NCBI GenBank assembly: GCA_000004985.1
Contig: GG738850.1
Reading direction: 5' to 3' (one strand)
Source of the DNA: Naegleria gruberi
Taxonomy: Eukaryota
DNA: 64,000 nt
Below are positions 7,975-27,226 of this stretch, in pieces. The notes beneath the pieces were generated by a model, which saw only the letters and a list, made by a program, of their open reading frames with translations, was not told the DNA's origin and searched no databases. Both the position numbers and the translations under genes were made by a program. Each line of letters begins with the position of its first letter. Position 1 is the first letter of the stretch.

Positions 7975-8246
7975 CTTGCTCCAGTCATGCCTGCTTTGAG
8001 CATTAAGGTTTTCCCTCTCGAATCTACACTGAGCGAAAATGGAAGTATTTGTTTCATTTTGCTTCAGGTATCTTCAGGTATCTTCACTCGCAGAGTTAAA
8101 TTTGCTCAAATTAGGACTAATGAACCGTATATTCTTACAAATTTGGAATGGATGAACCCAACTCACCGCGTGATGTTGTTGGCTTTTGTTGATTGGGTCT
8201 ATTGACGATTAAAGAACCAACCAACACAATACCAAACTGAAAAACA
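7975..8246. promoter_or_regulatory. Short divergent intergenic region (272 bp) between two head-to-head NHL/EGF genes. It is presumably a bidirectional promoter and contains the direct repeat GTATCTTCAG/GTATCTTCAC at 8067-8086.
   Basis: Gene A starts at 7974 on the minus strand and the next gene starts at 8247 on the plus strand. The spacer is AT-rich and has no convincing ORF. Confidence 0.35.
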
Positions 8247-10858
8247 ATGAAACCATTAAGGTATGCTCGCTTAATAGCTGCACTTATTATAGCACTATTG
8301 TTTTTCACTCAATACCATGTTGATTCAGTGCAAGGAGCTACCACCACATGTTTTGGCCTAGCTAGCACCAATGCATTGGTATGTTCAGGTTACGGAAGAT
8401 GTTCAGCCACAGATGTGTGCACATGTAACGAGGGTTACTATGGTAATTCTTGCAACAAGCAATATAGAATTACATCTCGAACAACAGTATTTGGTAAGAA
8501 AGGAGAAATAGGTAGCTATTATAAAGGATTGATTTTTAGTAGTACAGGATATGGTATTTCAGATGTTGAAGGAGATGAATTTCTATACTATATTGATGAA
8601 TCTCGTGTCCGTAAATTGAACATGAACACTGGTATTTCTAGTAGTACTCGTATGGGCGTTCCAGATCCAGACCGTTCTTATGCCATCTCAAACATTAAAT
8701 GTGTGCAAAGAAAAGGGAAAAAATTCTGCTATGCCATTCAAGACATCTCCTCTGTGTCGGTTTTCATATTTGGTCCAGACAGTTCGATTATGTATAACAC
8801 ACCATTCCAATATTCAGTTACAGTTCAATACGATCCGGTTCGTGACTGTCTCTTTTTGTATAGTAGAACAACACTTTACCAACTCACAAACCTGGACAAT
8901 TTTAATGGAACTAACTGGTCAGTGTATATCAAATCAGTACCCACAGATTATAGTTGCTTTACTGTTACTACCAATGGTGATTTGCTTTTTTGTGATTCTA
9001 CTTATAAAAATCTTGTCAAACTCAAACAAGATGGTACCAAAACCACTCTGGCCACTGGAATGAACCATTATAAGGGAATGTACATTTCAAATTATAATGA
9101 AATATTCTGGTATGAAAAGGGATTTATGAAGAAATTTGATGGTACCACTTTCAAGACTGTAATGACTTTAGATTGTTCTGATTATGCAGAGTTTGGATTG
9201 GGAAGAGAAAACAACACATTTTACCAAATAGATAATAATGTGATTGAAAAACTAGTTTATGGATTGACTTGTGTTGATAATAGGTGGAAAGGTGATAATT
9301 GTGATGAAGTTGCTCTGTTTTGCAATTCTGTCCCATTCAATGACTCGAAAGTTTGCTCTGGACATGGTAGTTGTCAAACTGGAGAAGTGTGCAATTGTAA
9401 CTATGGTTATACTGGTACTGACTGCGAGTCACTCATAATTACATGTTTTGGAGCAAGGGCTAGTAATGGAGGTGTTTGTAGTGGTAGGGGAAAATGCATT
9501 GCAAATGACACTTGTGTTTGTAATGATGGGTATTATGGAAATAACTGTCATGTTGACACTTGTTTTAATATTTTAGGAAATAGTTCCAGTGTTTGCAGTG
9601 GTAATGGTTATTGCAGAGGAACAGATAATTGTATTTGTTATGATGGATTTGCAGGCCCACTATGTAATAATACAGTTAGTACAGGAATTACATCATTTAA
9701 AGTTTCAGATTTTAACTTTCCAATGCCTAGAGGAAAGTTTGTTTCAAACGAATCACATTTGATTTATCATGACGAAACAACCCTAGAAGTGCTGGCAATT
9801 TCTTTTCAAACCAAGGCTGTTAGTTTACTAGGTTACTTTACTCAATCAACAGTAGAAGAAATGCGCTATTACAATGGAATAGTCTATTTTATTGATAGTA
9901 CCAAGAGTTTGAGATTTCTTCCAGAGGGAGGATTTACCCAAAAAATTACTGGTTCTATTACTGGTGCTTCCTATTTGAAAACTGCAACAACGTATGGAAC
10001 TTTCACAGGTGAAATTCAAACCTTTCAAGTTTGTTCACAAGGAATTATATTTGTGGAGCAAAATACTGGTAAAATTTTTAAATTGGTCTTTGATTACAAA
10101 ACAGGAGAAACTCAATTTTTTCACATTGCTGGTAAAGGTTATACAGAATCTGGAAAATCATGGAGTTTTAGCAATGGTAATGGAAAGCCGTTAGATGCTA
10201 CACTTGGGTACATTAATTCTCTTCTCATCAATGACAATGGTGATTTATTTATGGTGGATACAACCAATCATGTTATACGTCAGTTTAACCTATTAGGAAC
10301 CTCAACAATTGCGACAACAGCTGGTGTAGGTACATCAAAGGGATATTCTGGAGATGGTAAGAGTGCAAAATCATCCTTATTGAGTTTAAATCTCAATTCC
10401 ACACTATTGCACTACAATGGTGCCTTAATGTTCTTTGATGGAGGAAATAACCTTATAAGAAAGGTACTGAATGGAATCTTGTACGATGTTGCAGGTAGAC
10501 AGACCCTTGGAGGAGCTGCAACAATTGGTTTGGACAATACCAAAACAAGTCTTTTACTCACCAATCTTTTCAAGACTTCTCAAGGAGATATTGTCTTTAA
10601 GGACACGACAGGAAAATACATGGCTTTGGATATTTCTTTGAAATGTGCTGAAGGATTTACTGGAAGTAAGTGTGATGAGCCATTGAAATGTGGTGGAAGA
10701 TCCTTCTTGGATCCAAATGTTTGTTCTAAAAGAGGTCCGTGTCTTTCTACAGGAGTATGTGATTGCCCTTATGGTTGGACTGGAGATAGTTGTGAATTTG
10801 CTATCTGTTTCAATGTTGCTGCTAATGATGCTTCAGTTTGTGGGGAAAGGGATCTTGT
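8247..10858 (+). CDS. Secreted EGF/NHL-repeat protein, truncated at its 3' end by the 50-N gap. It has a signal peptide, two tenascin-type EGF repeats, a beta-propeller-like region, five EGF repeats, an NHL-repeat region, and further EGF repeats.
   Basis: The ATG at 8247 opens MKPLRYARLIAALIIALLFFTQYHVDSVQG, a signal peptide. EGF units include CSGYGRCSATDVCTCNEGYYGNSC and CSGHGSCQTGEVCNCNYGYTGTDC. An NHL-like block reads IAGKGYTESGKSWSFSNGNGKPLDATLGYINSLLINDNGDLFMVDTTNHVIRQFN. The frame is open for 2.6 kb up to the gap. The TQTQ/PKPK continuation in the ORF track is just a translation of the hexamer repeat. Confidence 0.65.
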
Positions 10859-10908: not shown

Positions 10909-11230
10909 AAACCCAAACCCAAACCCAAACCCAAACCCAAACCCAAACCCAAACCCAAACCCAAACCCAAACCCAAACCCAAACCCAAACCCAAACCCAA
11001 ACCCAAACCCAAACCCAAACCCAAACCCAAACCCAAACCCAAACCCAAACCCAAACCCAAACCCAAACCCAAACCCAAACCCAAACCCAAACCCAAACCC
11101 AAACCCAAACCCAAACCCAAACCCAAACCCAAACCCAAACCCAAACCCAAACCCAAACCCAAACCTGACATGGGATCCAAACCCAAACTAAAAATAGAAT
11201 TCTTCTAAACCCAACGTTCAAACCCTAACC
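10909..11230. repeat. Telomere-like hexamer array (AAACCC)n, about 43 perfect copies (10909-11165). G-strand is TTTGGG. It is followed by degenerate copies (AAACCTGA..., AAACCCTAACCC).
   Basis: Perfect tandem AAACCC units are read directly in the sequence. The C-rich strand is on the plus strand. Confidence 0.9.
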
Positions 11231-11680
11231 CAAAATTATAAACTTATTCAAATATCATTAAATTTTATATCATTCGATAGCTAATGATGAGTAGAACAAC
11301 ATGGTATATTTAGTTTTTCAATTTATAAAATATTAACTTTGTAAATAATGTCAGATTAAAATTTCTAAAATGAAACTATAGGAAGAATGATAAGTACAAA
11401 ATCCTTTAATGAGATTATATAGTCTATATCATCATTAACAACATTCATAATCACTTTCATATAAAATTTCAAAAGTTCATGTCTGTAGATATAAAAGTAT
11501 CAAGTGAAAAGGGAAGATGTGAGGTAAAAGAGGTCAACTATAACTTTTGAGTTTCTCATCAAAACATATTGAATCCTGACATGATAATGTTCCATTTGAT
11601 GATTAAACATCGAATATCAAATTTATTTTGACTTTCATATCTAAAGATTTCTTCCCTCAATCACATATTGTCAACTTGTA

Positions 11681-11799
11681 TGAAAAGGTGGAAATCTTGA
11701 TAAAGGACCACCTATTGAAACTTTACCAACATGATGTAGATGATCTATAATGATATAGAATTCAATTTCATGTCCTAATAATCAGAAATGGTACCATGG
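11681..11799 (+). repeat. Copy 1 of a ~115-bp dispersed element 'R' (GAAATCTTGA[T/A]AAAGGACCACCTATTGAAACTTTACCAACAT...). It is about 90% identical to the copy at 14833-14946 and runs into N-gap 11800.
   Basis: Direct comparison of 11681-11799 with 14833-14946. The preceding unique stretch 11340-11680 also shares degenerate blocks with 14950-15400 (CTATAGGAAGA, TCCATTTGATGA, GATTTATTTTAACTTTCATAT). Confidence 0.8.
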
Positions 11800-14307
11800 N
11801 NNNNNNNNNNNNNNNNNNNNNNNNNNNNNNNNNNNNNNNNNNNNNNNNNNNNNNNNNNNNNNNNNNNNNNNNNNNNNNNNNNNNNNNNNNNNNNNNNNNN
11901 NNNNNNNNNNNNNNNNNNNNNNNNNNNNNNNNNNNNNNNNNNNNNNNNNNNNNNNNNNNNNNNNNNNNNNNNNNNNNNNNNNNNNNNNNNNNNNNNNNNN
12001 NNNNNNNNNNNNNNNNNNNNNNNNNNNNNNNNNNNNNNNNNNNNNNNNNNNNNNNNNNNNNNNNNNNNNNNNNNNNNNNNNNNNNNNNNNNNNNNNNNNN
12101 NNNNNNNNNNNNNNNNNNNNNNNNNNNNNNNNNNNNNNNNNNNNNNNNNNNNNNNNNNNNNNNNNNNNNNNNNNNNNNNNNNNNNNNNNNNNNNNNNNNN
12201 NNNNNNNNNNNNNNNNNNNNNNNNNNNNNNNNNNNNNNNNNNNNNNNNNNNNNNNNNNNNNNNNNNNNNNNNNNNNNNNNNNNNNNNNNNNNNNNNNNNN
12301 NNNNNNNNNNNNNNNNNNNNNNNNNNNNNNNNNNNNNNNNNNNNNNNNNNNNNNNNNNNNNNNNNNNNNNNNNNNNNNNNNNNNNNNNNNNNNNNNNNNN
12401 NNNNNNNNNNNNNNNNNNNNNNNNNNNNNNNNNNNNNNNNNNNNNNNNNNNNNNNNNNNNNNNNNNNNNNNNNNNNNNNNNNNNNNNNNNNNNNNNNNNN
12501 NNNNNNNNNNNNNNNNNNNNNNNNNNNNNNNNNNNNNNNNNNNNNNNNNNNNNNNNNNNNNNNNNNNNNNNNNNNNNNNNNNNNNNNNNNNNNNNNNNNN
12601 NNNNNNNNNNNNNNNNNNNNNNNNNNNNNNNNNNNNNNNNNNNNNNNNNNNNNNNNNNNNNNNNNNNNNNNNNNNNNNNNNNNNNNNNNNNNNNNNNNNN
12701 NNNNNNNNNNNNNNNNNNNNNNNNNNNNNNNNNNNNNNNNNNNNNNNNNNNNNNNNNNNNNNNNNNNNNNNNNNNNNNNNNNNNNNNNNNNNNNNNNNNN
12801 NNNNNNNNNNNNNNNNNNNNNNNNNNNNNNNNNNNNNNNNNNNNNNNNNNNNNNNNNNNNNNNNNNNNNNNNNNNNNNNNNNNNNNNNNNNNNNNNNNNN
12901 NNNNNNNNNNNNNNNNNNNNNNNNNNNNNNNNNNNNNNNNNNNNNNNNNNNNNNNNNNNNNNNNNNNNNNNNNNNNNNNNNNNNNNNNNNNNNNNNNNNN
13001 NNNNNNNNNNNNNNNNNNNNNNNNNNNNNNNNNNNNNNNNNNNNNNNNNNNNNNNNNNNNNNNNNNNNNNNNNNNNNNNNNNNNNNNNNNNNNNNNNNNN
13101 NNNNNNNNNNNNNNNNNNNNNNNNNNNNNNNNNNNNNNNNNNNNNNNNNNNNNNNNNNNNNNNNNNNNNNNNNNNNNNNNNNNNNNNNNNNNNNNNNNNN
13201 NNNNNNNNNNNNNNNNNNNNNNNNNNNNNNNNNNNNNNNNNNNNNNNNNNNNNNNNNNNNNNNNNNNNNNNNNNNNNNNNNNNNNNNNNNNNNNNNNNNN
13301 NNNNNNNNNNNNNNNNNNNNNNNNNNNNNNNNNNNNNNNNNNNNNNNNNNNNNNNNNNNNNNNNNNNNNNNNNNNNNNNNNNNNNNNNNNNNNNNNNNNN
13401 NNNNNNNNNNNNNNNNNNNNNNNNNNNNNNNNNNNNNNNNNNNNNNNNNNNNNNNNNNNNNNNNNNNNNNNNNNNNNNNNNNNNNNNNNNNNNNNNNNNN
13501 NNNNNNNNNNNNNNNNNNNNNNNNNNNNNNNNNNNNNNNNNNNNNNNNNNNNNNNNNNNNNNNNNNNNNNNNNNNNNNNNNNNNNNNNNNNNNNNNNNNN
13601 NNNNNNNNNNNNNNNNNNNNNNNNNNNNNNNNNNNNNNNNNNNNNNNNNNNNNNNNNNNNNNNNNNNNNNNNNNNNNNNNNNNNNNNNNNNNNNNNNNNN
13701 NNNNNNNNNNNNNNNNNNNNNNNNNNNNNNNNNNNNNNNNNNNNNNNNNNNNNNNNNNNNNNNNNNNNNNNNNNNNNNNNNNNNNNNNNNNNNNNNNNNN
13801 NNNNNNNNNNNNNNNNNNNNNNNNNNNNNNNNNNNNNNNNNNNNNNNNNNNNNNNNNNNNNNNNNNNNNNNNNNNNNNNNNNNNNNNNNNNNNNNNNNNN
13901 NNNNNNNNNNNNNNNNNNNNNNNNNNNNNNNNNNNNNNNNNNNNNNNNNNNNNNNNNNNNNNNNNNNNNNNNNNNNNNNNNNNNNNNNNNNNNNNNNNNN
14001 NNNNNNNNNNNNNNNNNNNNNNNNNNNNNNNNNNNNNNNNNNNNNNNNNNNNNNNNNNNNNNNNNNNNNNNNNNNNNNNNNNNNNNNNNNNNNNNNNNNN
14101 NNNNNNNNNNNNNNNNNNNNNNNNNNNNNNNNNNNNNNNNNNNNNNNNNNNNNNNNNNNNNNNNNNNNNNNNNNNNNNNNNNNNNNNNNNNNNNNNNNNN
14201 NNNNNNNNNNNNNNNNNNNNNNNNNNNNNNNNNNNNNNNNNNNNNNNNNNNNNNNNNNNNNNNNNNNNNNNNNNNNNNNNNNNNNNNNNNNNNNNNNNNN
14301 NNNNNNN

Positions 14308-14832
14308 AACCCAAACCCAAACCCAAACCCAACCCAAACCCAAACCCAAACCCAAACCCAAACCCAAACCCAAACCCAAACCCAAACCCAAACCCAAACC
14401 CAAACCCAAACCCAAACCCAAACCCAAACCCAAACCCAAACCCAAACCCAAACCCAAACCCAAACCCAAACCCAAACCCAAACCCAAACCCAAACCCAAA
14501 CCCAAACCCAAACCCAAACCCAAACCCAAACCCAAACCCAAACCCAAACCCAAACCCAAACCCAAACCCAAACCCAAACCCAAACCCAAACCCAAACCCA
14601 AACCCAAACCCAAACCCAAACCCAAACCCAAACCCAAACCCAAACCCAAACCCAAACCCAAACCCAAACCCAAACCCAAACCCAAACCCAAACCCAAACC
14701 CAAACCCAAACCCAAACCCAAACCCAAACCCAAACCCAAACCCAAACCCAAACCCAAACCCAAACCCAAACCCAAACCCAAACCCAAACCCAAACCCAAA
14801 CCCAACCCAAACCCAAACCCAAACCCAAACCT
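14308..14832. repeat. Second telomere-like array (AACCCA)n, about 87 copies, in the same orientation as the first. It contains occasional AACCC 5-mer variants and ends with the identical junction CCCAAACCTGA.
   Basis: Read directly from the sequence. Both arrays end ...AAACCCAAACCTGA. Confidence 0.9.
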
Positions 14833-14946
14833 GAAAGGATGAAATCTTGAAAAAGGACCACCTATTGAAACTTTACCAACATTATGTAGATGATCTATAA
14901 TGATGTAGAATTCAATTTCATATCATAAGAACAAGAAATGGAACTG
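14833..14946 (+). repeat. Copy 2 of element R, immediately abutting the second array.
   Basis: See copy 1. Confidence 0.8.
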
Positions 14947-15530
14947 TAGGAAGATAATGGTTGACTTTATAAGGTTGACTTTAAGGATTGACAGGTCAGA
15001 TCAAGTCTATCAAATACATCACTTCAATCAACAAAATATACATGAAAATGCTCCATTTGATGAGTAGAGATAGAATATTTGATTTATTTTAACTTTCATA
15101 TTCATGATTTCATCCCTTTCATACCATCTAGTCAACTATGGACATGGATGAATTTCTGGAAAATGACTACTCTACGAAACATCACCATCATGTTCTACAT
15201 CTCTAATAATATATATGGTTCAGTTTACAGACATTATGGTGAATATTCTATCATTCAGTAAGGTAAAGGGTGAAATTTCAAGGTTGTCTTGGAAGATCAG
15301 GAGGAAATGTTGAATATAGAGAACAACATCCTCAATCTACAAAATACATATCAATCGATTGGAAATCAATAGTAAATCTCGAAAATATAATTTATTTTAT
15401 GTTTTGAAATCTCTCCTTGACCTCTTTTAGTCAATTAAGACAATTAAGGATGACACTATAGGAAAAGTTACCAATCTCATAATAAATGATAATATCGTGT
15501 TCTACATCTCAAATAAAGTGGACTTTCTTC
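14947..15530. repeat. Degenerate satellite-like or subtelomere-like repeats. The internally repeated ~23-mer ATC[A/G]TGTTCTACATCTC[T/A]AATAA occurs at 15186 and 15495, and several blocks are shared with 11340-11680.
   Basis: Self-similarity was found by eye. There is no credible ORF. The 60-aa ORF at 15079-15261 and the EESPLYLRCRTRYYHLL tail at 15477-15530 lie inside these repeats. Confidence 0.55.
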
Positions 15531-17753
15531 ANNNNNNNNNNNNNNNNNNNNNNNNNNNNNNNNNNNNNNNNNNNNNNNNNNNNNNNNNNNNNNNNNNNNN
15601 NNNNNNNNNNNNNNNNNNNNNNNNNNNNNNNNNNNNNNNNNNNNNNNNNNNNNNNNNNNNNNNNNNNNNNNNNNNNNNNNNNNNNNNNNNNNNNNNNNNN
15701 NNNNNNNNNNNNNNNNNNNNNNNNNNNNNNNNNNNNNNNNNNNNNNNNNNNNNNNNNNNNNNNNNNNNNNNNNNNNNNNNNNNNNNNNNNNNNNNNNNNN
15801 NNNNNNNNNNNNNNNNNNNNNNNNNNNNNNNNNNNNNNNNNNNNNNNNNNNNNNNNNNNNNNNNNNNNNNNNNNNNNNNNNNNNNNNNNNNNNNNNNNNN
15901 NNNNNNNNNNNNNNNNNNNNNNNNNNNNNNNNNNNNNNNNNNNNNNNNNNNNNNNNNNNNNNNNNNNNNNNNNNNNNNNNNNNNNNNNNNNNNNNNNNNN
16001 NNNNNNNNNNNNNNNNNNNNNNNNNNNNNNNNNNNNNNNNNNNNNNNNNNNNNNNNNNNNNNNNNNNNNNNNNNNNNNNNNNNNNNNNNNNNNNNNNNNN
16101 NNNNNNNNNNNNNNNNNNNNNNNNNNNNNNNNNNNNNNNNNNNNNNNNNNNNNNNNNNNNNNNNNNNNNNNNNNNNNNNNNNNNNNNNNNNNNNNNNNNN
16201 NNNNNNNNNNNNNNNNNNNNNNNNNNNNNNNNNNNNNNNNNNNNNNNNNNNNNNNNNNNNNNNNNNNNNNNNNNNNNNNNNNNNNNNNNNNNNNNNNNNN
16301 NNNNNNNNNNNNNNNNNNNNNNNNNNNNNNNNNNNNNNNNNNNNNNNNNNNNNNNNNNNNNNNNNNNNNNNNNNNNNNNNNNNNNNNNNNNNNNNNNNNN
16401 NNNNNNNNNNNNNNNNNNNNNNNNNNNNNNNNNNNNNNNNNNNNNNNNNNNNNNNNNNNNNNNNNNNNNNNNNNNNNNNNNNNNNNNNNNNNNNNNNNNN
16501 NNNNNNNNNNNNNNNNNNNNNNNNNNNNNNNNNNNNNNNNNNNNNNNNNNNNNNNNNNNNNNNNNNNNNNNNNNNNNNNNNNNNNNNNNNNNNNNNNNNN
16601 NNNNNNNNNNNNNNNNNNNNNNNNNNNNNNNNNNNNNNNNNNNNNNNNNNNNNNNNNNNNNNNNNNNNNNNNNNNNNNNNNNNNNNNNNNNNNNNNNNNN
16701 NNNNNNNNNNNNNNNNNNNNNNNNNNNNNNNNNNNNNNNNNNNNNNNNNNNNNNNNNNNNNNNNNNNNNNNNNNNNNNNNNNNNNNNNNNNNNNNNNNNN
16801 NNNNNNNNNNNNNNNNNNNNNNNNNNNNNNNNNNNNNNNNNNNNNNNNNNNNNNNNNNNNNNNNNNNNNNNNNNNNNNNNNNNNNNNNNNNNNNNNNNNN
16901 NNNNNNNNNNNNNNNNNNNNNNNNNNNNNNNNNNNNNNNNNNNNNNNNNNNNNNNNNNNNNNNNNNNNNNNNNNNNNNNNNNNNNNNNNNNNNNNNNNNN
17001 NNNNNNNNNNNNNNNNNNNNNNNNNNNNNNNNNNNNNNNNNNNNNNNNNNNNNNNNNNNNNNNNNNNNNNNNNNNNNNNNNNNNNNNNNNNNNNNNNNNN
17101 NNNNNNNNNNNNNNNNNNNNNNNNNNNNNNNNNNNNNNNNNNNNNNNNNNNNNNNNNNNNNNNNNNNNNNNNNNNNNNNNNNNNNNNNNNNNNNNNNNNN
17201 NNNNNNNNNNNNNNNNNNNNNNNNNNNNNNNNNNNNNNNNNNNNNNNNNNNNNNNNNNNNNNNNNNNNNNNNNNNNNNNNNNNNNNNNNNNNNNNNNNNN
17301 NNNNNNNNNNNNNNNNNNNNNNNNNNNNNNNNNNNNNNNNNNNNNNNNNNNNNNNNNNNNNNNNNNNNNNNNNNNNNNNNNNNNNNNNNNNNNNNNNNNN
17401 NNNNNNNNNNNNNNNNNNNNNNNNNNNNNNNNNNNNNNNNNNNNNNNNNNNNNNNNNNNNNNNNNNNNNNNNNNNNNNNNNNNNNNNNNNNNNNNNNNNN
17501 NNNNNNNNNNNNNNNNNNNNNNNNNNNNNNNNNNNNNNNNNNNNNNNNNNNNNNNNNNNNNNNNNNNNNNNNNNNNNNNNNNNNNNNNNNNNNNNNNNNN
17601 NNNNNNNNNNNNNNNNNNNNNNNNNNNNNNNNNNNNNNNNNNNNNNNNNNNNNNNNNNNNNNNNNNNNNNNNNNNNNNNNNNNNNNNNNNNNNNNNNNNN
17701 NNNNNNNNNNNNNNNNNNNNNNNNNNNNNNNNNNNNNNNNNNNNNNNNNNNNN

Positions 17754-20543
17754 CCAAGCTTTCTTCAACAGATTTCCCTTTGGTATTTGTTGTGCTCTAT
17801 CAGTCATCCAAATTTGATAGTCCTGATGGTCTAAAGGTACTGTGGTGGTCTGGAGTGAGCATTGATGTTCTTCAAATATTCTATCATATTTCTCTCTTTC
17901 ACATAATTGTCTCAAAATGACTTCATTATTGTTCACCCGCACAGAATAATCCTTTTCATACTCCTTCTTCTTCTTGTTGCTCAACCTTTGTGGTTGACAA
18001 TACATAAAGGTATCTGGTATTACCGTTGAGAGAAATAATATTCTAAGTTTACGGAACAATACTTGAGCCAATAACTTATCTTCTTGTCCTATTTCTATTG
18101 TCGACCTAGGACCTTCAATGGGAGAGACAGCAAAGATATTCAACAATAAATTCTTATTATCTTCAATATCATCACCAAGCTCTTTCACAAATTTGAAGCC
18201 ACTAACTTTAAAGTGCTCTGTGTAGTCTCTGGTGTTGGAGAGAAGTGAATTATAGAAAGTATGTGTATGTCCACCACCCTTGCTGGAACCCTTTATAATG
18301 GTGTCTGCTTCATCAACATGACTACTTTCGAATGCTTGAGTTTCAAATACTTTAACATGACCAACTCTTTCTCGCAAGGAAACAATATGTTTCACCAATA
18401 TGTGAGCATACCATGATTTACCTGGAAACCCATGAACAGCTGCAACATAAACAGCCCAAAATTTGTTACCTGAGTCAAGAATTTGATTATTTGGTTTGTC
18501 ATAATCAATATTATGTAGGAAGTCGCGTAATGACTCCCATAAAACCTTTGTCTTCTCATTTTCGAAATGAGGAGACAATGTATTACTGTTGTCAAGAAGA
18601 ATATTACCTGTGTTGCCTAGAAGAAAGACTCTCACTTCATTCCATTCCTCATCTTCAACTTTGTTCAAATCTTCAAGACCTTTGATACCACAAACACACT
18701 CCCAAAATTCTTCCTTCTTCCTAACACCACATAAAGTTATTCTTAAAACATTTCACAAAGCCGTTCTTTTGCATGAAGGATACATATTATAATGTTGGAT
18801 GCAGGTAATCCAAGGATACAACCAAGATTTAAATTTGTTCTTGGCTTGTGGTTTTTACAACAGATTGGAAAAGAAATGTTGCAAAATGGACACCATGAAT
18901 CTTGTTTCACTCCAGGACAAACAACACCCAAGGCCTTTAAATCCATTGTCAAGAATACATCAATACTACAATGATACGAATCAATGGAAATACCATGTTT
19001 TCTGATTATTTCAATTTCATTCTTGAAATGATCAGCAATATGTGTCAATTCTGATTCGTCTCCCTTCCAGGCAGCCAAAGGAACACACACAACCCGAGAA
19101 TGACCCAACCCAAAACACTTACTGTTAATAACAGTAATGGTTAATGTTGTTAATTTAGAATTTGCAGCATAATCAAGATTTAGGGCAACTATTAAATCTT
19201 TAAAGTTCATGTCATCTTCCTTACACAATGATCGTTTCTTCTTCTTCATCCAACCAATCCACTTTTAATACATAACAACATACGGTAGGAAGAATGGAAT
19301 GGTATATGATGTTTCTATTTTCTCCAATTGATTTAAGTTTCACGTTAAATATATCTGCACACAATACATCTGTTGTCGATTGAGTTTGTTGTAAGGTTCC
19401 TGAGGGAAGTAAATCTTTCACTTTTCCTTCCAATCTGAATTCATCAACTGTGCCTTTAGAAACCAGTCTTCTATTTTTAACTAAGGTTTGTTTTAAGGCT
19501 ATTTCTGTTACCTTATTGGAGTGTGAAGGCTTTCGAACTTTCTTTTTTTTTACCTTTTTTGATTTTGGTTGAGCCAATTCTTTTTCTCTTTTTCTCTTTT
19601 GACTCGCTTCCCACTGTTTATCTTGTATTGAGCTAAGTTCATTATATTCTTTTTGAAACAATTTTTTCTCAGGTTTTTTTCTTGTCTCAGGTTGAATGGG
19701 TGCGGTTAATCCTTCTTCCTCCATACGTCTATTATCTAACAAACCCTTTCTTTTTAAAAGCCCCAAAAAGGAGTACAAATCTCGGAATCCCTCTGCCTTA
19801 CTAATTAAATCATGCCCAACAAGTTTTTGTTTCAAAATCTTCTTTCTTTTAAGGTTGGCACTTGAAGAAACATTTTCCTCATAATTGGTGAATTTGTAAG
19901 ATATTTTGTTTGTGACAATTGAATTATCAAGATTAACAAATCCAAAATGTTCTGAAATATCAATATAATATCTTTTTAATCCGTTTTCCTCAATTACTAT
20001 CCTATCTTTCTTTCCAATTCCATCATCATTGGGTATCTGAGTGGATTTGGAGTATTGTTCTGCAATTCTTTTTAGGAATTGTTGTTCTTTTGTTGGGTTT
20101 TTGGGTTCTTCTGTAGTTGTAGAAATCTCAACATCATTATTTTGGGAGGAATGATGACATGAATTTTGGGAGGAATGATGACATGAATATGTTTGTGGAT
20201 TAGGATAACTCATATTACCATTATTTTGAGAGGAGTAATGACATGAATTTTGAGAGGAGTGATAATATGAGTTAGGATAGATTGGTGAATTGTATGAATT
20301 TTGAAAGAAGGTTGGATGATATGAATTTTGAGAGGAGTGATGACATGAATATGTTTGTGAGTTGTAAAGTGGGACGGTGGAAAATGGTGGTATTATATAG
20401 TCCTGTGAAGCTTGAGGATAATTGTTGGTATGAATGAATGGAGAGTATTGTGAATGGTATTGTTGATGATTTTGGTGTTGGTAATGTGTATCTTCTATTG
20501 ATTCATCCAATGATAAACAATCATGCCAGTCACTTTCTGACAT
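17754..20543 (-). pseudogene. Large minus-strand gene of unknown function, read as three consecutive ORFs separated by two apparent single-nucleotide frameshifts at ~19221-19249 and ~18743-18760. Segments: 20543-19221, 19249-18743, and 18668-17754 running into N-gap. It is either a pseudogene or an assembly indel artefact, and the 3' end lies inside the gap. The N-terminus is Q/H/S/Y-rich and low-complexity with SCHHSSQNS repeats. This is followed by a Lys/Arg-rich block and a Cys/His cluster (H-x3-H ... C-x2-C), and then a region with an HGFPGKSWY motif and an HVDEAD motif.
   Basis: Both junctions keep two frames open across the overlap: ...DWLDEEEETIIV* versus MKKKKRSLCKEDD..., and ...HAKERLCEMF* versus ...NVLRITLCGVRKKEEFWECVCGIKGLEDLNKVEDEEW. 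A 1-nt indel at either junction would fuse them into one ORF of more than 900 aa. No family was recognised. GFPGKS is one residue short of a canonical Walker A motif. Confidence 0.4.
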
Positions 20544-20601: not shown

Positions 20602-21285
20602 CTAGAAAAATGTAAATTCATCCTCATCTTCGTATTTAATCTTTGTGTCGTAGCTGAAATGCATTGTTATTTCATTTGATTCCGTATCCATAATAAAAGA
20701 AATACTGTTGACTTCCAATAAATATAGTGTTCTAATGTATGTATCATCTTCCATTTGTGTGGTTGAACTAATTACTTGACGTCCCCAGTTTTCAAAAATG
20801 TCTAACATTGGAAGAATAGATTGAAATCTATACCCAAAACATGGTACCTTGTATTTAATTCCATGTCTATTGATGGTTCTGTCTGAATGGAAAAATTTAG
20901 CACCTTCCATGGCTTCAAATATTACTTGGAAAACCTCAGTTTCTAAACAACCACAGCTAATGTAGTTTCTCTTATGAATGCCACCTAGTTTGAGTAATCT
21001 ATTAACCTTCACACGAGCACACTTGGAAAATAATTGGAAGGATCTAACTACAAATTGTTGTTCTTCATCACAAAGATCACCATAACCATGGGAGAGTGCT
21101 TGGATTTTAGGTAGGCCGTGTTCAATAATAATATCTTTAAAGTAAGTTTCTTCTTTACGTTGTTGTACAAGTTGGGCATTAACAGGTGTAGTGTTTGATG
21201 AAGAGTCAACGTCCATCATAGCCACATCGTCAATGGTACCTTCTTGAATGACAGTGGTGGAAGTATACTTGTATTGAGTGTTCAT
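20602..21285 (-). CDS. Hypothetical 227-aa protein, single exon, intact ORF.
   Basis: ATG at 21285 (MNTQYKYTSTTVIQEG...), TAA stop, moderate codon bias, no recognisable domain. Confidence 0.45.
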   Translation of the reverse strand: MNTQYKYTSTTVIQEGTIDDVAMMDVDSSSNTTPVNAQLVQQRKEETYFKDIIIEHGLPKIQALSHGYGDLCDEEQQFVVRSFQLFSKCARVKVNRLLKLGGIHKRNYISCGCLETEVFQVIFEAMEGAKFFHSDRTINRHGIKYKVPCFGYRFQSILPMLDIFENWGRQVISSTTQMEDDTYIRTLYLLEVNSISFIMDTESNEITMHFSYDTKIKYEDEDEFTFF

Positions 21286-21717
21286 TGTTTAGTTATTGTT
21301 TTTTGTTTTGTTTGTTGGTAGCCAGAGGGTAATGTTGCGAGACATTTTATAGGTTTTTTTTTTGTAAGAAAAATCATCATTTTCCACAGCCTCTCCTTTC
21401 GCAGGCCATTAAAAATGATGGTTGCTAAATTGTAGTGTGATGTAGGTGAGTTGTTATTGTATTTTTTTAAGATTCCTTAAATGAACCTTAATACAGTACT
21501 GACTCCAACTGACAAGAGTAAGTGCTTCCGCTCCTACAAAGAATATTCAATATTACCCACTTTATATTTAATAAATTATACAATATCTTGATAATTATAT
21601 GAACAATACATGATTTTTATTGTCGGAATCATCACTAAATCATGCTACCCATCCAGAAATATCAAAGGGTACATTTCAATATCACTCTATTGTATGAAAG
21701 TGTATAAAACTCACCCA

Positions 21718-24700
21718 AACCCCACCAACCCAAAACCTTCAAAGCGTATCCATCTATTATCCACCATGTGTACCAAACAATACTGACATTAGTTTTAAAT
21801 GGAGTATAACTCAATCAGACGCAGTAAGACCACTAAAAATTGTTACAGATATCAAAGGGACCTCTGTTGCTATACTAAAATTTCCTGATGCAGGATATTA
21901 TACCTATAAATTAACAGTTCAAGGAACAGTTGTGAAAGATCCAACTCTGACCTTTACTGAAACCTGCACTATCAAGACATTTCCAAGAGAACTATCCTTG
22001 AAAGCAAAAATTACAAGTATTTCATATAGAGATGCCATTGTTGGTATAACCAGTGAAGACCCTGATGCTGTACCAGCTGAGAAGGAGGAATGGAAATATT
22101 CATGTTTGACTGGAAATGGTGATGTTTGTGGTGATACTGTTGACACAATGTTGTCCAAAATGAATTCCCAACAATCAGAGATATCATTCCAAAGAACAAT
22201 GTTCAACCAAACTTTTGTTAACACCAACACCAAATTTTACATTTCAATCCAATACTCAAAAGGAATTAGAGTTGCCAAATCACAAGTTATAGTTCAGTTT
22301 TCTAATGCTCCAAATATAATTCCCCCAATTTTAACAAACATTTACAGACCAACTAAAAAACTAAGCCCAGGAGATCGTATCGACATTGTAAATCAGGTAT
22401 CTATTGGACAGAAAAAGGTGGCATGTGCAATTTATGATTCTTGGGGAAAAACTTTCAATATGAATTGGTATCTAGATGGTGAACAACGGGCTCGATGTGA
22501 GAGTATTAGTGCAACTGCAGAAGAAGGGAAAACATATAATTTTGAGTTTAGATTTGTTGATAATAATATAGAATATGTGGATATTACAACAGTGGTAGTG
22601 AATAGAGCTCCATCATGTACTTGTATTGTGACTCCAACGACAGGGTTTGCTATGGATACCATGATTACTATGACATGTCCTAACTGTCAAAATGAAGAAC
22701 AATCTTTAGAGATATCGTTTGGTTTTATGGATTGTAATCGTCCTGTCACATTAAAAAAGGAGGGAATTCATTCCAAACTCCTTTCCCGCTAGGTTGCGAT
22801 CCTGATTTATTCTTGAGTAATGAAGCTCAGGCTTTCATTAAGATAACGGACTTGAATACTGATATAAGCACAACTAAACAGTTTAAAATACAACTACACA
22901 ATCCAGTGGCTGAAACTCTCGCTGACATGTCAAATTTGGTTGACTTGTGGAAAAGAAAGAGAGAGTCACTTCCTGTAGGTGATAGTCGCAGAAATGTTTT
23001 CAGTAGTGCCTATATAAGCAGAGCAGTTAAGGCTATACTGAAAGTTATGGATCCAGCAGCTCAATTAACTAGATCAATAGGAAGTAGAAGACTTAGAACG
23101 TTGGAATGCAATGGACATGGTACATTGATAAACGGAACTTGTGTATGCAATAGTGGGTACTACACAAATGATTGTAAATACAATGCAGCTGACTTGGCAG
23201 CCATTAGAACAATGAAGCAAAACTTGTTCGATGATTTCATTCAAAGTCAACTTGAAAGAAACAGTACTTTTGACCCAATTTCTGAAGCTATCCTTACAAG
23301 CTCTGTCTCTGGTATTGATTCATTCTTGGCGGATTTGAACTATTTGACTAACTCTACTTTTGAGAGTTGTGTTTATTTGTTTGCATCTGTATGGGATGAG
23401 GCAATATCTGATCCAGAGTTGACAATCTCACAAGAAGTTGCACAATCAAGCGTTACCATTTTGGAACGTATTTATCAGTCCTCTTTTAAAACTGTGGCAC
23501 ACAAAACAATTATTGATTCATACTTTAAAAAGATTAGCCAAATTAGATTGAGAACTAATAACATTGGAGAAAAATTATCATTCTCCAATGTTACATTTAC
23601 TGATTCCTTTTCAATGAGAGAACTATCTTCGAGTTTAGATAATACCACCATTGTCTACTCTGATAAACAACCAAATTTACAAGTGAAATTTGCCGAATCA
23701 ATGGATACCAAATATGATCAGCAAATGTTCATATTCTACACTTTCGGTTTAATCCAAGATTTGAGTAGTATTAATCAAACGATTAGTAATATCAGTGGAC
23801 CTGAATATACTAACACGATGATTTCACAATCTGCCGTATTTTTGAAAGTCTACAATCAGAAATCAATTGCTGACTTGAATGATACCGATACCTCAATAGT
23901 GTATCAGATTCCACTTTCTGAAACGCTCCAAAAAACCAACTTCAAGCTTAGAAAATTAGTTCCTTCCACAGAGTACACTTATTCCTGTATCTCACTGGAT
24001 GAAATTGGAGAACAGCTCGACACTAATGTAACTTGCTCCATCTCATTCATTGTTGGAAATGATCAATTAGTACAATGCACATGTTCAGAACCAACCACCG
24101 TTATTGTTGTAAAGAGTTCAAGAATAATTTCAGTAGATGATGGAGTAATATATTGTGATGGAATTCAAAGCTCTGATTTGAAATCTTGTAATGGAAATGG
24201 TAATTGTACTGATAATGAAGTATGTCATTGTAGTCCAGGTTTTAATGGAACCTATTGCGAATTTGAAATTCCAATTAACAATTCAACTATGGATAATTCC
24301 ACAACTAGTGTTCAAAATTCAACCATTGATAATTCAACCACAGATTCAAATTCCACTTTTAACAATACTACAGATCCTGCTAGCAATAATACTATAATTT
24401 CTAATTCAAGTGATATCAATAATAATACCATGCAAAGTAATGCTACTGTTGGAAATAGTACTGTTGAGAATAACTCTACACTTGAGAATAATTCTACCAC
24501 TCTTGACAACTCTACTTTAAATAATTCAACTCTATATAATTCAACTACACTTGAAAATAATTCTACCTTGGATTATAATTCAACTCTAAATAATACCACT
24601 TTAAGTAATTCTACCTTGGAACAATTCTACCATAGAAAATAATTCTACACTTGACAACTCTACTCATGCTGAAAATACTACCTGGTCAAATAATACTCAA

Positions 24701-27226
24701 GTAGAAAACAACACTCTGCATTCAAATGATTCATTGAATTCCAGTAACAATACATCTGAAAATTCATCAATTCCCCAAATTCCATTAGAAATGGATCTTA
24801 TTATTAGCAAATCAGTGGCAGATTTTTGTGATCAAATCACATTCAATGCCATTGTGAAAAACAATAGGTATACTATTAATTTCATTTGGAGAAGCTCTGA
24901 ATCAAACTCATATCTGAAACAATTACTTCAATCAATTAGTACTGATTCTATTTCAATAGAAACTGGATTGTTGGGATCGGGTTCTTACAACATTAGTGTG
25001 AGTATTTCAGAAAGAACCCAACAAGTCACTCAATCCAAGACTATTTCTATAAGGAAAGTTCAACCAAAATTATTCATGGATGACATCACTTACGTTTCTA
25101 TTGGATCTGAAGTTGATGTCATGCCATCAATCACTCTTCCACATTGCTACCCTTATTCCAATTTGGTGTACAAGTATGAAATGAATACAAAGGAAGAATC
25201 TGTGGCAAATATTGACAAGATAGTTTTTGACGAAACTTTGGAAATTAAATGTTCAAAAGGAGGAGAAAGTTGCAATGATATTTCAACTCCAATAACTCCA
25301 ACCTATTCAACCATTCTTCAGGAAGGTGTTTACAACTTTACAGCCATATTCACCAAAGGATCAAGAAGCTCAATCAGTACCATTATTGTTACTGTCCAAA
25401 GTCCAAGCTTACCAAACAATGCATTTGTTTCCACATTATCATTGTCTAACACTGAAGATTTGAATAATGTTGATCCAAACAATGATCTAAAAGTTAGCTT
25501 TAGAACAAGTGAAAAGTTAACCAATCCAAAATACACTTGGACTTCTGACCTTCCTATCAGTGGAAATAGTGCAAGTTATCTCATCATTCCTAAATCATAT
25601 CTGGTAACAGGTGTTCAACATAACATTACTTTAGATATCAAAGATGGATCCAGATATTCCAAGACGACAATCTATTTCATTGTTAATTCACCACCTACTG
25701 TTGGAAGCTTTGCAATCACTCCTCAAGAAGGAAGTGCACTTGAAACTGTATTCACATTAGATGTACAAGAGGGATGGTTAGATTCAAATTTACCACTCAC
25801 TTTCAAATTCTTCTACCTGGATGAATATTCAAATACTTGGATTCCTCTCTCTGAAAGAACAGAGTCTAATGTTTTGAGTGTTTCATTACCTCCTGGTTAT
25901 GGAAATTATTCTACACTTAGAACTAAGGTTCATGTATATGATTCTATGGGTGTATATTCATATAAGGAAAGTTATGCAATTGTTAGAAAGCCAAATATCA
26001 TTTCTGACTCGATGATTTCAACTCTTAATGCTATCAACTCGTCCACTTCATCTCCTTCAGTGCTATCCACTGCCCTGAATGTTATAAGTACAGTTAGTGA
26101 CAAGACGGAAAAAGTTATTGGCATTACTAATAGTTTGGTTTCTAATTACGTAGAGAATGCCAATTTGGAAAATATCAATTCTGAAAAAGCCCTCTCCACA
26201 ATCTCTATCTATTCATATAGTGCATCTTGTTTACCATATTTGCAAGACTCGGTTACATCTGCTCTGATTTCAAAATTAGAAAGTTTTACTGAGCTTATTT
26301 CTGCAAACTCGTTTGATTCATTGGATGAGCAATACTTGGATTCAATCAAATCTACAACTGACAAGTTATATGACAAGGTTTTGTCTAAAACAAAAAGAAG
26401 CTTATCAACCAAGGAATTGATAGCTCTGGAAAATGTCTATGTAAACTTGGCAAGGGCCTATGTCAAGAGTTCCTTACCAGATATGAAAGGAAAATTAATT
26501 ACCTCAAACTCAATTTCAACCTATTCCAGAAAGATCAACACTGCCTCTGCTAAGAGTTCATTAATTACCAGTGAAATTGTAGACTCTAACAATACTATAT
26601 TATCATTAACTTCAAATATTGCTCAAAAACTTTCCCTTTCCTCTTTCACAATAATTGTCAAATCACAAAGTTCTCTTGTGAACAAGATTATTTCCAAAGT
26701 ATTGACCGTCTCCATACCAGAAGTACCAAATGGAATTATTTCCAACTCTCCAATAGGATCCCTCCTCATCAAACATTCCACAGTATCATCAAATAATATT
26801 TCGTGTGTTTGCTTCAACAGCATTTCCAATAGTTTTGAAAAGGATGTTGGTTGTTGTCGATTGACAACAGTTTCCTCTCGTTCCATTTCGTCCACCTCAT
26901 CCATTTACCTCTACAGAACTGCAATATTTGCACTGAGGGATGAAAACCATGGAACAATCATTACTGAAGAATCTATTCCAATCAAACCAAAACCAACAAT
27001 ATCCGTTGGTAGTGGAAGTGGAGATGGAGGAAATCATGTCATTAAACCACCAAAGCAAACAAGAACCAACAATAATAATCTATTTGGATTACTTTCACTT
27101 TTGGCCACTTTGTTTGTGGCAGTGGCCATAAGTGTTGCAGTGATTGTCCTCTGTGTGAGACAAAGAAAGTACAAGGCAATGCAAAATGCTGCTCCTGTTG
27201 ATCTTCCTATGCGTTCCGAGATCTGA
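21718..27226 (+). pseudogene. Gene B, a 5'-truncated paralogue of the REJ/PKD-like C-terminal part of gene A. It is read as three frames (21718-22790, 22738-24645, 24611-27226) because of two apparent 1-nt frameshifts, one at the A6 run 22752-22758 and one near 24610-24625. It consists of Ser/Thr-rich REJ-like modules, an N-glycosylation-rich NST repeat tract, then a single TM helix and a short basic tail, and ends with TGA.
   Basis: Paralogy to gene A: APSCTCIVTPTTGFAMDTMITMTCPNCQNEEQSLEISFGFMD versus PCPCSVSPSSGYAFDTLFTLQCSNCQNAANSIKITYGFID. A second match is RTLECNGHGTLINGTCVCNSGYYTNDCKYN versus TVCEHGGKVDDVSGKCICPSGYYKVDCSMS. After the first shift the alignment to gene A continues in the other frame (NSFQTPFPLG~QSYSTKLPST, AFIKITDLNTDISTTKQFKIQL~VFFKIIDTNSGAFIIQKSSVKVVL). 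The NST repeat continues in a +1 frame after ...SNSTLEQFYHRK*. The C-terminal TM reads LLSLLATLFVAVAISVAVIVLCV. Confidence 0.55.

What the first reader, a model, noticed from the sequence alone, without database searches (positions are those of the whole stretch)
17754..20543. Large unknown gene with a Cys/His cluster and deviant P-loop-like motif immediately beside the telomere-like repeats
Once its two frame breaks are bridged, this ORF exceeds 900 aa and continues into the gap. Its features are:
- A Q/H/S/Y-rich N-terminus with SCHHSSQNS repeats.
- A strongly basic K/R block (KRKREKELAQPKSKKVKKKKVRK) that is plausibly an NLS or nucleic-acid-binding region.
- An H-x3-H ... C-x2-C arrangement (THIADHF ... 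CPFC) that superficially resembles integrase-type HHCC zinc binding.
- Later, HGFPGKSWY plus HVDEAD motifs.
I could not place it in any family. Its position between degenerate repeats and a pseudogenised paralogue makes a mobile-element or virus-derived origin worth testing.
Basis: partly seen in the sequence, partly recalled or inferred. Interest (0 to 1): 0.55.

Follow-up and report, generated by a model that had tools for sequence, protein, structure and literature searches.

The report
Broken CACTA-type, RAG1-like transposase gene
The "unknown gene" is the damaged transposase gene of a previously unannotated two-gene jumping element of Naegleria amoebae; its enzyme has the same fold and active-site layout as RAG1, the enzyme that assembles vertebrate antibody genes, and its DNA ends match those of plant CACTA transposons.

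Summary
The window is Naegleria gruberi. The ORF is real: minus strand, 20543 to 17754, two frame breaks, running into a gap. It is not a P-loop/DEAD protein and not an integrase-type HHCC protein. A family profile hits the Transib transposase (E 3.8e-8) and RAG1. An AlphaFold model of the intact N. lovaniensis homologue (pTM 0.87) matches only RAG1 and Transib. D, D, CxxC, CxLH, HxxxxH and E are near-invariant.

The pair forms a discrete element of about 4 kb. It has inverted termini starting 5'-CACTACAA, as in plant CACTA elements, plus a subterminal AAAATGATG motif. It lies at different loci in the syntenic sister species N. fowleri and N. lovaniensis, with an empty site in N. fowleri. Those two copies have dS 0.01-0.04, against 0.71 for a neighbouring host gene, which indicates recent mobility or horizontal transfer.

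The window copy is disabled by an 8-nt and a 1-nt deletion. Proximity to (AAACCC)n is not a family trait.

Verdict: a new variant within the CACTA/Mirage/Chapaev/Transib clade. Moderately interesting.

The parts
19267..20543 (-). orfB (transposase) piece 1. It contains a Q/H/S/Y-rich low-complexity N-terminus, a conserved N-terminal domain of about 150 aa, a basic K/R linker, and the start of the RAG1-like core.
   Evidence: Translation. Collinear with N. lovaniensis P0001 and the ENA homologues.
19262..19270 (-). Frame break 1: an 8-nt deletion relative to the N. lovaniensis copy. It removes the 'QHK' codons of ..CCYVLQHKKWIG.. and shifts the frame.
   Evidence: Pairwise DNA alignment. The residues are conserved in L002 and L003.
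18753..19266 (-). orfB piece 2 (shifted frame). It holds catalytic D1 in LNLDYA (19183-19160), D2 in TMDLK (18949-18929), zinc ligands CPFC (18892-18881) and CILHAKERLCE (18784-18752).
   Evidence: In the family alignment D1 is 32/33, D2 38/38, the two Cys 40/40 and 39/41, and the C and H of CxLH 44/45 and 43/45.
18750..18756 (-). Frame break 2: loss of one A in an A-run (GAAAATG to GAAATG). It returns the reading to the original frame, so the net change is -9 nt.
17754..18752 (-). orfB piece 3. It holds the H-x4-H zinc ligands HILVKH (18404-18387), the catalytic E in FETQAFESSH (18347-18318) and the C-terminal helical domain. It runs into the gap a few codons before the expected stop.
   Evidence: The two His are 41/43 and 41/42, and E is 40/40.
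20602..21285 (-). orfA, a 227-aa accessory ORF (= NAEGRDRAFT_63160). It ends 58 nt upstream of the orfB ATG and is found in the same position in every retrievable locus that carries orfB.
   Evidence: The AF2 model has a helix plus a curved antiparallel sheet. No PDB, viral or Pfam match.
21424..21437 (-). 5' terminus of the element: CACTACAATTTAGC, a CACTA-type terminal repeat arm.
   Evidence: It is homologous to the N. lovaniensis and N. fowleri termini, and inter-species DNA homology starts within one base of this terminus.
21375..21420 (-). Two exact copies of the subterminal motif AAAATGATG in opposite orientations (21412-21420 and 21375-21383).
   Evidence: In N. lovaniensis there is one exact copy at each end, in inverted orientation.
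21345..21351 (-). TATAAAA box within a non-coding block conserved across species (…ACAAAAAAAAA..TATAAAATGTCTC), the presumed orfA promoter inside the element.
   Evidence: Alignment of left ends.
15532..17753 (.). Assembly gap. It hides the last codons of orfB and the expected 3' terminal repeat, which lies about 260-275 nt after the stop codon in N. lovaniensis.
14308..14831 (+). (AAACCC)n telomere-like array. This is context only and is not part of the element.

Best explanation
The ORF (orfB) is the transposase gene of a roughly 4-kb cut-and-paste DNA transposon of Naegleria.

Shown:
- The element carries a second, conserved upstream ORF (orfA).
- It is bounded by inverted termini that begin 5'-CACTACAA, followed by a subterminal AAAATGATG motif.
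- It occupies different loci in syntenic sister species.
- The N. gruberi copy in this window is inactivated by an 8-nt and a 1-nt deletion, and its 3' end lies in an assembly gap.

Inferred:
- The transposase binds the CACTA-type ends, probably helped by orfA and/or its own N-terminal domain recognising the subterminal motif.
- It cuts at the CAC termini using the DDE site and reinserts the element, probably with a 3-bp target duplication.

The element belongs to the CACTA/EnSpm-Mirage-Chapaev-Transib ('CMCT') clade. Its termini are of CACTA type, but its transposase is too divergent for the Pfam Tnp2 or RAG1 models.
For: Identity of the window:
- orfA is 100% identical to N. gruberi NAEGRDRAFT_63160.

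Sequence homology:
- A profile of the close family finds 61 relatives among 1.84 billion representatives. Every relative that carries a source organism name (14 of the 20 looked up) is Naegleria or Willaertia; the others are unnamed contigs.
- A profile of those relatives hits HzTransib 6pqn at E 3.8e-8 over 312 positions, RAG1 at about 7e-5, and BbRAG1L at 1.2e-4.
- D2, CxxC, HxxxxH and E align residue for residue.
- The signature residues are 93-100% conserved in the family and all are present in the window copy.

Structure:
- The AF2 model has pLDDT 84 and pTM 0.87.
- The top 20 Foldseek PDB hits are exclusively RAG1 or HzTransib, at E 2e-8 to 1e-4 over about 570 columns. The next hit is Hermes at E 0.02.

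Element structure:
- orfA plus orfB are adjacent in all five loci that carry orfB (window, L001-L004).
- N. lovaniensis has a perfect 16-nt inverted repeat flanking the pair, plus a second shared block.
- N. lovaniensis/N. fowleri DNA identity of 96% starts one base outside the CACTAC terminus, and the flanks are unrelated.
- L003/L008 homology starts exactly at CACTAGAG.
- CACTACAA is also the start of the En1, Tam1 and Cac1 TIRs (PMC3193017).
- C(2)C and H(3-4)H between the second D and E, together with CA..TG termini, define the CMCT clade (PMC12730594).

Mobility:
- N. fowleri has an empty site at the N. lovaniensis locus, inside conserved synteny (high synteny between the two species is reported in PMC9928731).
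- Element dS is 0.007-0.041, against 0.71 for the adjacent RecQ gene.

Decay:
- The two deletions in the window copy.
- A frameshift, a deletion and a 3' truncation in N. fowleri.
- A split ORF in L003.
Against: - No target-site duplication could be demonstrated. The one complete copy has TGA...TCA (2 of 3 matching), and the empty-site junction is too diverged to align.
- Both termini are visible only in N. lovaniensis. L003 shows no convincing right arm, and the window's 3' end is in a gap.
- Copy number is very low: one full cassette was seen in each sequenced species, plus a second orfA paralogue in N. gruberi. No proliferation was observed.
- The Pfam Tnp2 model (PF02992) does not match this subfamily. 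It gives only one weak hit, in a distant paralogue.
- Solved structures exist only for the RAG1/Transib branch, so the fold search cannot discriminate among CMCT lineages.
- No transposition has been observed experimentally.
Confidence: 0.85

Rival explanations
1. The orfA/orfB pair is a domesticated, transposon-derived host gene pair with a cellular role, for example at chromosome ends, and is no longer a mobile element.
For: [quoted passage not shown]
- The pair is retained in N. gruberi, N. lovaniensis and N. fowleri, with catalytic and zinc residues intact.
- dN/dS is 0.16 between the N. lovaniensis and N. fowleri orfB copies.
- The window copy and the N. lovaniensis copy lie toward scaffold or contig ends.
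Against: - The pair sits at different loci in syntenic sister species, with an empty site in N. fowleri.
- Homology ends at the inverted termini.
- Three of the five orfB copies are disrupted.
- Element dS is 17- to 100-fold below host dS.
- No telomere repeat lies within 10 kb of the other copies.
Confidence: 0.07
2. The element is a bona fide member of the Transib superfamily, the direct source group of RAG1, rather than a CACTA-like or separate CMCT lineage.
For: The best sequence and structure matches are HzTransib and RAG1. Four family members hit Pfam RAG1 weakly, with a best E of 8e-4.
Against: - The termini are CACTACAA / CACTAGAG, not the CACAATG-type heptamer of Transib (the Transib consensus is recalled from my own knowledge).
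- There is no 5-bp duplication in the complete copy: CATGA versus TCAAT, 0 of 5 matching.
- The element has two ORFs.
- Other family members weakly hit Tnp2, TNP1 and DUF1280 instead.
- The PDB holds no EnSpm, Mirage or Chapaev structure to compete with.
Confidence: 0.1
3. The gene is a virus-derived or cellular P-loop NTPase/DEAD-type helicase, or a retroviral-type HHCC integrase.
For: Only the literal motifs in the window copy support it: HGFPGKS, HVDEAD and THIADHF...CPFC.
Against: - The motifs are not conserved in homologues.
- The region aligns to RAG1 'YFHKTLAH...NESGNK'.
- The fold search returns no P-loop protein. The only integrase-like RNase-H hits are marginal (HIV RT, E above 1).
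- There are no Pfam P-loop, helicase or integrase hits.
Confidence: 0.01

Closest known systems
CACTA / En-Spm (EnSpm) DNA transposons, e.g. maize En1 and Antirrhinum Tam1
   Same: - The termini begin with the same 8 nt, CACTACAA.
- A short motif recurs subterminally in both orientations.
- There are two proteins: a large DDE transposase plus a smaller second one.
- C(2)C and H(4)H lie between the second D and E.
- A 3-bp duplication is possible (TGA/TCA).
   Different: - The transposase is not recognised by Pfam Tnp2 (PF02992).
- orfA has no detectable similarity to TnpA/TNP1.
- The element is small (about 4 kb), intron-poor and has very low copy number.
- The host is a heterolobosean amoeba.
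- The TSD is unproven.
Transib transposase (HzTransib) and RAG1 / RAG1-like (ProtoRAG)
   Same: - They share the overall core fold over about 570 residues.
- They share the order D, D, CxxC, HxxxxH, E.
- The spacing from the second His to the catalytic E is identical (20 residues).
- The termini begin with CAC.
   Different: - Sequence identity is only about 12-14%.
- The CACTA-type termini differ from the Transib/RSS heptamer.
- There is no 5-bp duplication.
- The partner ORF (227 aa, alpha+beta) is not a RAG2-like beta-propeller.
- No RING or NZD N-terminal region was detected.
[quoted passage not shown]
   Same: All the clade-level signatures are present: DDE, C(2)C, H(3-4)H and CA...TG termini.
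   Different: Its position inside the clade is unknown. It may be a separate heterolobosean lineage. Some distant relatives carry a C-terminal Ulp1/C48 protease domain.

Membership tests
CMCT clade (CACTA/EnSpm-Mirage-Chapaev-Transib) | DDE catalytic triad on an RNase-H-like fold | tested here: met
   D1 is conserved in 32/33, D2 in 38/38 and E in 40/40 family members, and all are present in the window. The fold matches RAG1/Transib, followed by Hermes.
CMCT clade (CACTA/EnSpm-Mirage-Chapaev-Transib) | [quoted passage not shown] | tested here: met
   CPFC and HILVKH. They are conserved in 40/40, 39/41, 41/43 and 41/42 members and align to the RAG1 CTLC and HKTLAH motifs. The definition is from PMC12730594.
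CMCT clade (CACTA/EnSpm-Mirage-Chapaev-Transib) | Termini 5'-CA...TG-3' | tested here: met
   CACTACAAC...GTTGTAGTG in N. lovaniensis. The left termini are CACTACAA in N. gruberi and N. fowleri, and CACTAGAG in L003 and L008.
CACTA / EnSpm superfamily | Terminal inverted repeats starting 5'-CACTA | tested here: met
   Same calls as the previous row. The first 8 nt are identical to En1, Tam1 and Cac1 (PMC3193017 Table 2).
CACTA / EnSpm superfamily | 3-bp target-site duplication | tested here: inconclusive
   The only complete copy has TGA|element|TCA, 2 of 3 matching. The empty-site junction in N. fowleri cannot be aligned.
CACTA / EnSpm superfamily | Transposase of the Tnp2/TnpD family (Pfam PF02992) | tested here: not met
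   No hit for the window pieces, P0001 or P0002. One sub-threshold hit (E 0.0079, 15.9 bits against a cutoff of 28.6) in a distant paralogue, P0024.
CACTA / EnSpm superfamily | Second protein (TnpA-like) and subterminal repeats | tested here: inconclusive
   A conserved second ORF is present, but it has no similarity to anything known. Only one or two copies of AAAATGATG occur per end.
Transib superfamily | RAG1-core-like transposase | tested here: met
   HzTransib at E 3.8e-8. Foldseek probability 1.0 with TM about 0.5.
Transib superfamily | 5-bp target-site duplication | tested here: not met
   The N. lovaniensis flanks are CATGA and TCAAT, 0 of 5 matching. This rests on a single copy.
Transib superfamily | RSS-like TIR (CACAATG-type heptamer, spacer, A-rich nonamer) | tested here: inconclusive
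   The termini start with CAC and are followed by an A-rich block, at 43 nt from the left terminus and 20 nt from the right. However, the heptamer is CACTACA. The Transib consensus is recalled from my own knowledge and was not checked here.
P-loop NTPase / DEAD-box helicase | Conserved Walker A GxxxxGK[ST] and Walker B/DEAD | tested here: not met
   GFPGKS becomes GFQGKC in two homologues, and HVDEAD becomes HLEEKE or HGEDDY. There are no Pfam or fold hits.
Retroviral/retrotransposon integrase | N-terminal HHCC zinc domain preceding the DDE core | tested here: not met
   THIADHF is not conserved. The CxxC lies after the second D and pairs with a downstream HxxxxH, as in RAG1.

The most novel reading that the evidence does not exclude
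The most novel reading not excluded is that this is a heterolobosean-specific lineage of RAG1-fold transposons that is still active.
- It would use an obligatory, structurally novel accessory subunit (orfA), functionally analogous to RAG2 or TnpA.
- It would have asymmetric ends: the subterminal motif sits 43 nt from one terminus and 20 nt from the other, a 23-nt difference reminiscent of the 12/23 rule.
- It would have moved horizontally, very recently, between the lineage of the human pathogen N. fowleri and N. lovaniensis.

If so, the element would be an independent, deep-branching model for how RAG-like recombinases pair unlike ends.
Probability: 0.15. Interest if true: 0.75.

Novelty: new variant of a known kind. 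Interest (0 to 1): 0.55.

Why it matters
- It gives an identity to a set of Naegleria and Willaertia "predicted proteins" that current domain libraries leave blank.
- It shows that RAG1-fold (CMCT) transposases occur in Discoba, in a form combining CACTA-type ends, a RAG1/Transib-like core and an orphan partner ORF.
- The extremely low synonymous divergence between the N. fowleri and N. lovaniensis copies, at non-orthologous sites, is a candidate case of recent transposon transfer involving the brain-eating amoeba lineage.
- A small two-gene element with intact copies (N. lovaniensis, L002) could be tested as a genetic tool in Naegleria, which lacks one.
- For the N. gruberi window itself the result is mundane: a dead transposon copy next to an assembly gap.

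Tried and rejected
- Pfam on the three window pieces, on P0001/P0002 and on orfA found nothing significant.
- A profile of the close family alone against PDB sequences found nothing. Only the broadened profile worked.
- A search for a paralogue of orfB or orfA inside the window found none.
- A search for a second terminal-repeat arm in the window found none; it would lie in the gap.
- Inverted-repeat searches in L002 and L003 found no convincing arms.
- I tested a conserved programmed frameshift. The N. fowleri break (a 1-nt insertion at VIN|SKCFG) is about 35 codons away from the window's break, so the two are independent lesions.
- The apparent tandem duplication in N. fowleri is an artefact around a 10-N gap, because the duplicated stretch includes the flank.
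- N. gruberi paralogues (P0007, P0063, P0068) could not be retrieved as DNA.
- The afdb50 fold library was unavailable.
- The empty-site alignment could not resolve the TSD.
- My CBS codon comparison was in the wrong frame and is discarded. Only the RecQ control is used.
- Literature searches for the Naegleria telomere repeat were unproductive.
Full report
**1. What is in the sequence**

The window is an AT-rich (about 33% GC) eukaryotic scaffold with six N-gaps. On the minus strand a reading frame starts at ATG 20543 and runs to the gap edge at 17754. It is in three pieces: 20543-19221, about 19261-18743, and 18752-17754. Two (AAACCC)n arrays lie at 10909-11165 and 14308-14831. The nearer array is separated from the gene by 700 bp of unique sequence and a 2,222-N gap. 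The neighbouring ORF at 20602-21285 is 100% identical to N. gruberi NAEGRDRAFT_63160, so the window is Naegleria gruberi.

**2. The frame repair is right, and the breaks are deletions**

The repaired protein finds an intact 907-aa homologue in N. lovaniensis (C9374_014194; 56% identity, 97% coverage) and two metagenomic homologues. Alignment with the N. lovaniensis DNA gives the following:
- Break 1 is an 8-nt deletion that removes the QHK codons of CCYVLQHKKWIG.
- Break 2 is the loss of one A in GAAAATG.

The net change is -9 nt, which is why the third piece returns to the first frame. However, translation from the ATG stops at 19221. An 8-nt deletion is unlikely to be a base-calling error, so the window copy is best read as a pseudogene. 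The homologue ends about 10 residues beyond the point where the window ORF meets the gap, so almost the whole gene is visible.

**3. The motif readings of the first stage**

- In two homologues GFPGKS is GFQGKC (it stays GFSGKS in L003), and HVDEAD is HLEEKE or HGEDDY. There is therefore no Walker A or DEAD box.
- THIADHF is TLIAEEL in one homologue, so it is not a zinc site.
- What is conserved is LNLDxA, xMDLKAL, WCPYC, C(V/I)LHAKERxxE, WYxHILxKH, FETQxxESxH and AQxLxRKLRIL.

**4. Identity of the protein**

Pfam sees nothing in the window pieces or the close homologues. A profile of the close family searched against 1.84 billion representatives finds 61 proteins at E <= 1e-3. Of the 20 that were looked up, the 14 carrying a source organism name are from Naegleria gruberi, N. 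lovaniensis, N. fowleri or Willaertia magna. They include at least five further, very divergent N. gruberi "predicted proteins". Two relatives carry a C-terminal Ulp1/C48 protease domain.

A profile of the 62 sequences then hits the following among solved structures:
- the Helicoverpa Transib transposase (6pqn) at E 3.8e-8 over 312 profile positions;
- many RAG1 entries at about 7e-5 to 1e-3;
- amphioxus RAG1L (6b40) at 1.2e-4.

The alignment pairs these motifs:

| Window / family motif | RAG1 / Transib counterpart |
|---|---|
| MDLK | RAG1 GYDEK |
| WCPYC | CTLC |
| YxHILxKH | YFHKTLAH |
| FES | NESGN |

From my own knowledge of RAG1, these correspond to D708, C727/C730, H937/H942 and E962. 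The spacing from the second His to the Glu is 20 residues in both proteins.

Across the family these residues are 93-100% conserved. An AlphaFold2 model of the N. lovaniensis core (residues 328-907, 50-row alignment) is confident, with pLDDT 84.4 and pTM 0.87. Its 20 best Foldseek matches in the PDB are exclusively RAG1 or HzTransib, at E 2e-8 to 1e-4 with about 570 aligned columns and TM about 0.5. The next match is the hAT transposase Hermes at E 0.02.

CPFC is indeed a zinc-ligand pair, but of RAG1 type rather than integrase type.

**5. It is part of a two-gene, TIR-bounded unit**

In every retrievable locus that carries orfB (window, N. lovaniensis L001, N. fowleri L004, metagenomic L002 and L003), a 212-244-aa ORF (orfA; 46-61% identity) sits 15-114 nt upstream on the same strand. 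Translated similarity between loci stops at the edges of this pair.

In N. lovaniensis the pair is flanked by a perfect 16-nt inverted repeat (8962-8977 and 12986-13001), followed on both sides by CCAA(A)GAAAATGATG. The window has the homologous left end (CACTACAATTTAGC at 21437-21424), two copies of AAAATGATG, and a conserved TATAAAATGTCTC promoter block.

Where the homology starts:
- DNA identity of 96% between the N. lovaniensis and N. fowleri copies starts one base outside the CACTAC terminus, and the flanks are unrelated.
- The homology between two metagenomic copies (L003 and L008) starts exactly at CACTAGAG.

The terminus is therefore 5'-CACTA(C/G)A. Its first 8 nt are identical to the TIRs of maize En1, Antirrhinum Tam1 and Arabidopsis Cac1 (PMC3193017, Table 2).

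[quoted passage not shown] The Naegleria element meets all the clade-level criteria.

Within the clade the evidence is mixed:
- The termini and the two-ORF layout point to CACTA.
- The only detectable sequence and structure matches are RAG1/Transib, which are also the only members with solved structures.
- Pfam Tnp2 does not match.

In the one complete copy the flanks are TGA and TCA. This is a possible degraded 3-bp duplication, and a 5-bp duplication is excluded for that copy.

**6. Mobility**

N. fowleri and N. lovaniensis have highly conserved gene order (PMC9928731), yet the cassette has different neighbours in the two species. I fetched the N. fowleri region orthologous to the N. lovaniensis insertion site. 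Synteny holds on both sides (RecQ and cystathionine beta-synthase on one side; the next genes on the other; 70-94% nucleotide identity). The 4-kb element is absent: the anchors are 480 bp apart instead of 4,844 bp.

| Compared sequence (N. lovaniensis vs N. fowleri) | Nucleotide identity | dS |
|---|---|---|
| orfA | 99.6% | 0.007 |
| First 461 codons of orfB | 98.7% | 0.041 (dN/dS 0.16) |
| Adjacent RecQ host gene | 82.5% | 0.71 |

The two species' copies therefore share an ancestor far younger than the species split. This indicates recent horizontal transfer or introgression followed by insertion. The background rests on only one host gene.

The N. fowleri copy is itself decaying. It has a 1-nt insertion, a 100-bp deletion and 3' truncation. 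Its apparent tandem duplication is an assembly artefact around a 10-N gap.

**7. orfA**

Two very distant transposase paralogues (N. lovaniensis L005 and metagenomic L006) also have a 212-220-aa ORF upstream. Its profile aligns collinearly with orfA, but weakly (hhalign E 1.3e-3, probability 18%). I infer, but have not shown, that orfA is an accessory transposition protein. One metagenomic contig (L008) carries the left end plus orfA without orfB.

**8. Telomere context**

None of the other loci has (AAACCC)n within the 6-10 kb of flanking sequence retrieved (or to the contig end), so the association is specific to this copy. The two arrays in the window are each adjacent to gaps and are followed by a shared 111-nt segment. 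The local scaffold structure is therefore uncertain. I could not verify from the literature that AAACCC is the Naegleria telomere repeat.

**9. Verdict**

The "mobile element" idea is right, and the P-loop, DEAD and HHCC ideas are wrong. The gene is the disabled transposase of an unannotated, low-copy, two-ORF DNA transposon. The element has a RAG1/Transib-like catalytic core and CACTA-type ends, and it belongs to a family so far seen in Heterolobosea. I rate it a new variant of a known kind, of moderate interest. The window copy itself is an ordinary dead transposon. The family, its orphan partner ORF and the evidence for recent inter-species movement are what deserve follow-up.

Noticed in passing
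L001 8962-13001 (N. lovaniensis) vs L004 7432-10952 (N. fowleri); control L001 2729-7036 vs L007 11836-16050: The element copies of the two species differ at dS 0.007-0.041, while the neighbouring RecQ gene differs at dS 0.71. The copies also sit at non-orthologous loci. This is a candidate recent horizontal transfer between the N. fowleri and N. lovaniensis lineages.
   Followed up: partly
window 11684-11794 and 14834-14944: A 111-nt segment (90% identical) recurs next to the two (AAACCC)n arrays, both of which border N-gaps. A weaker match links 11579-11757 to 15040-15213. This suggests a repeated telomere-associated unit or a scaffolding problem. The first array (10909-11165) abuts a truncated EGF/NHL-type gene (8247-10858) across a 50-N gap.
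   Followed up: partly
L001 8964-9016 and 12970-12999: In N. lovaniensis the subterminal AAAATGATG block starts 43 nt from the left terminus but 20 nt from the right terminus, a 23-nt asymmetry between the two ends. In the window's left end the motif occurs twice, in opposite orientations.
   Followed up: partly
P0017, P0023 (distant family members, Logan contigs): Two distant transposase relatives carry a C-terminal Ulp1/Peptidase_C48 domain. From my own knowledge, this domain is also fused to or carried by some other DNA transposon groups.
   Followed up: no
L005 4402-5064 / 6001-8829 and L006 4871-5509 / 5641-8784: Very divergent paralogous transposase genes in N. lovaniensis and in a metagenome also have a 212-220-aa ORF upstream on the same strand. 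This hints that the two-ORF layout is ancestral to the whole heterolobosean family.
   Followed up: partly
L008 320-1160: A metagenomic contig carries the element's left end plus orfA but has no orfB homologue downstream. It could be a deletion derivative or a solo orfA. N. gruberi also has a second orfA paralogue (NAEGRDRAFT_80703, 64% identity) whose context could not be retrieved.
   Followed up: partly
L001 2729-7036 and record position (about 13 kb from the end of a 775.6-kb contig): The N. lovaniensis copy lies next to a RecQ-family helicase gene near a contig end. From my own knowledge, subtelomeric RecQ helicase genes occur in several fungi. Whether this contig end is a telomere was not checked.
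   Followed up: no
window 21932-27226 and 58519-59638: Downstream of the element lie REJ-domain and EGF-domain surface-protein-like genes (21932-22792, 22813-24642, 24734-27226). There is also a 72-nt tandem array of 15.6 copies that resembles leucine-rich repeats (my inference from its repeat periodicity and translated match to L002), at 58519-59638.
   Followed up: no
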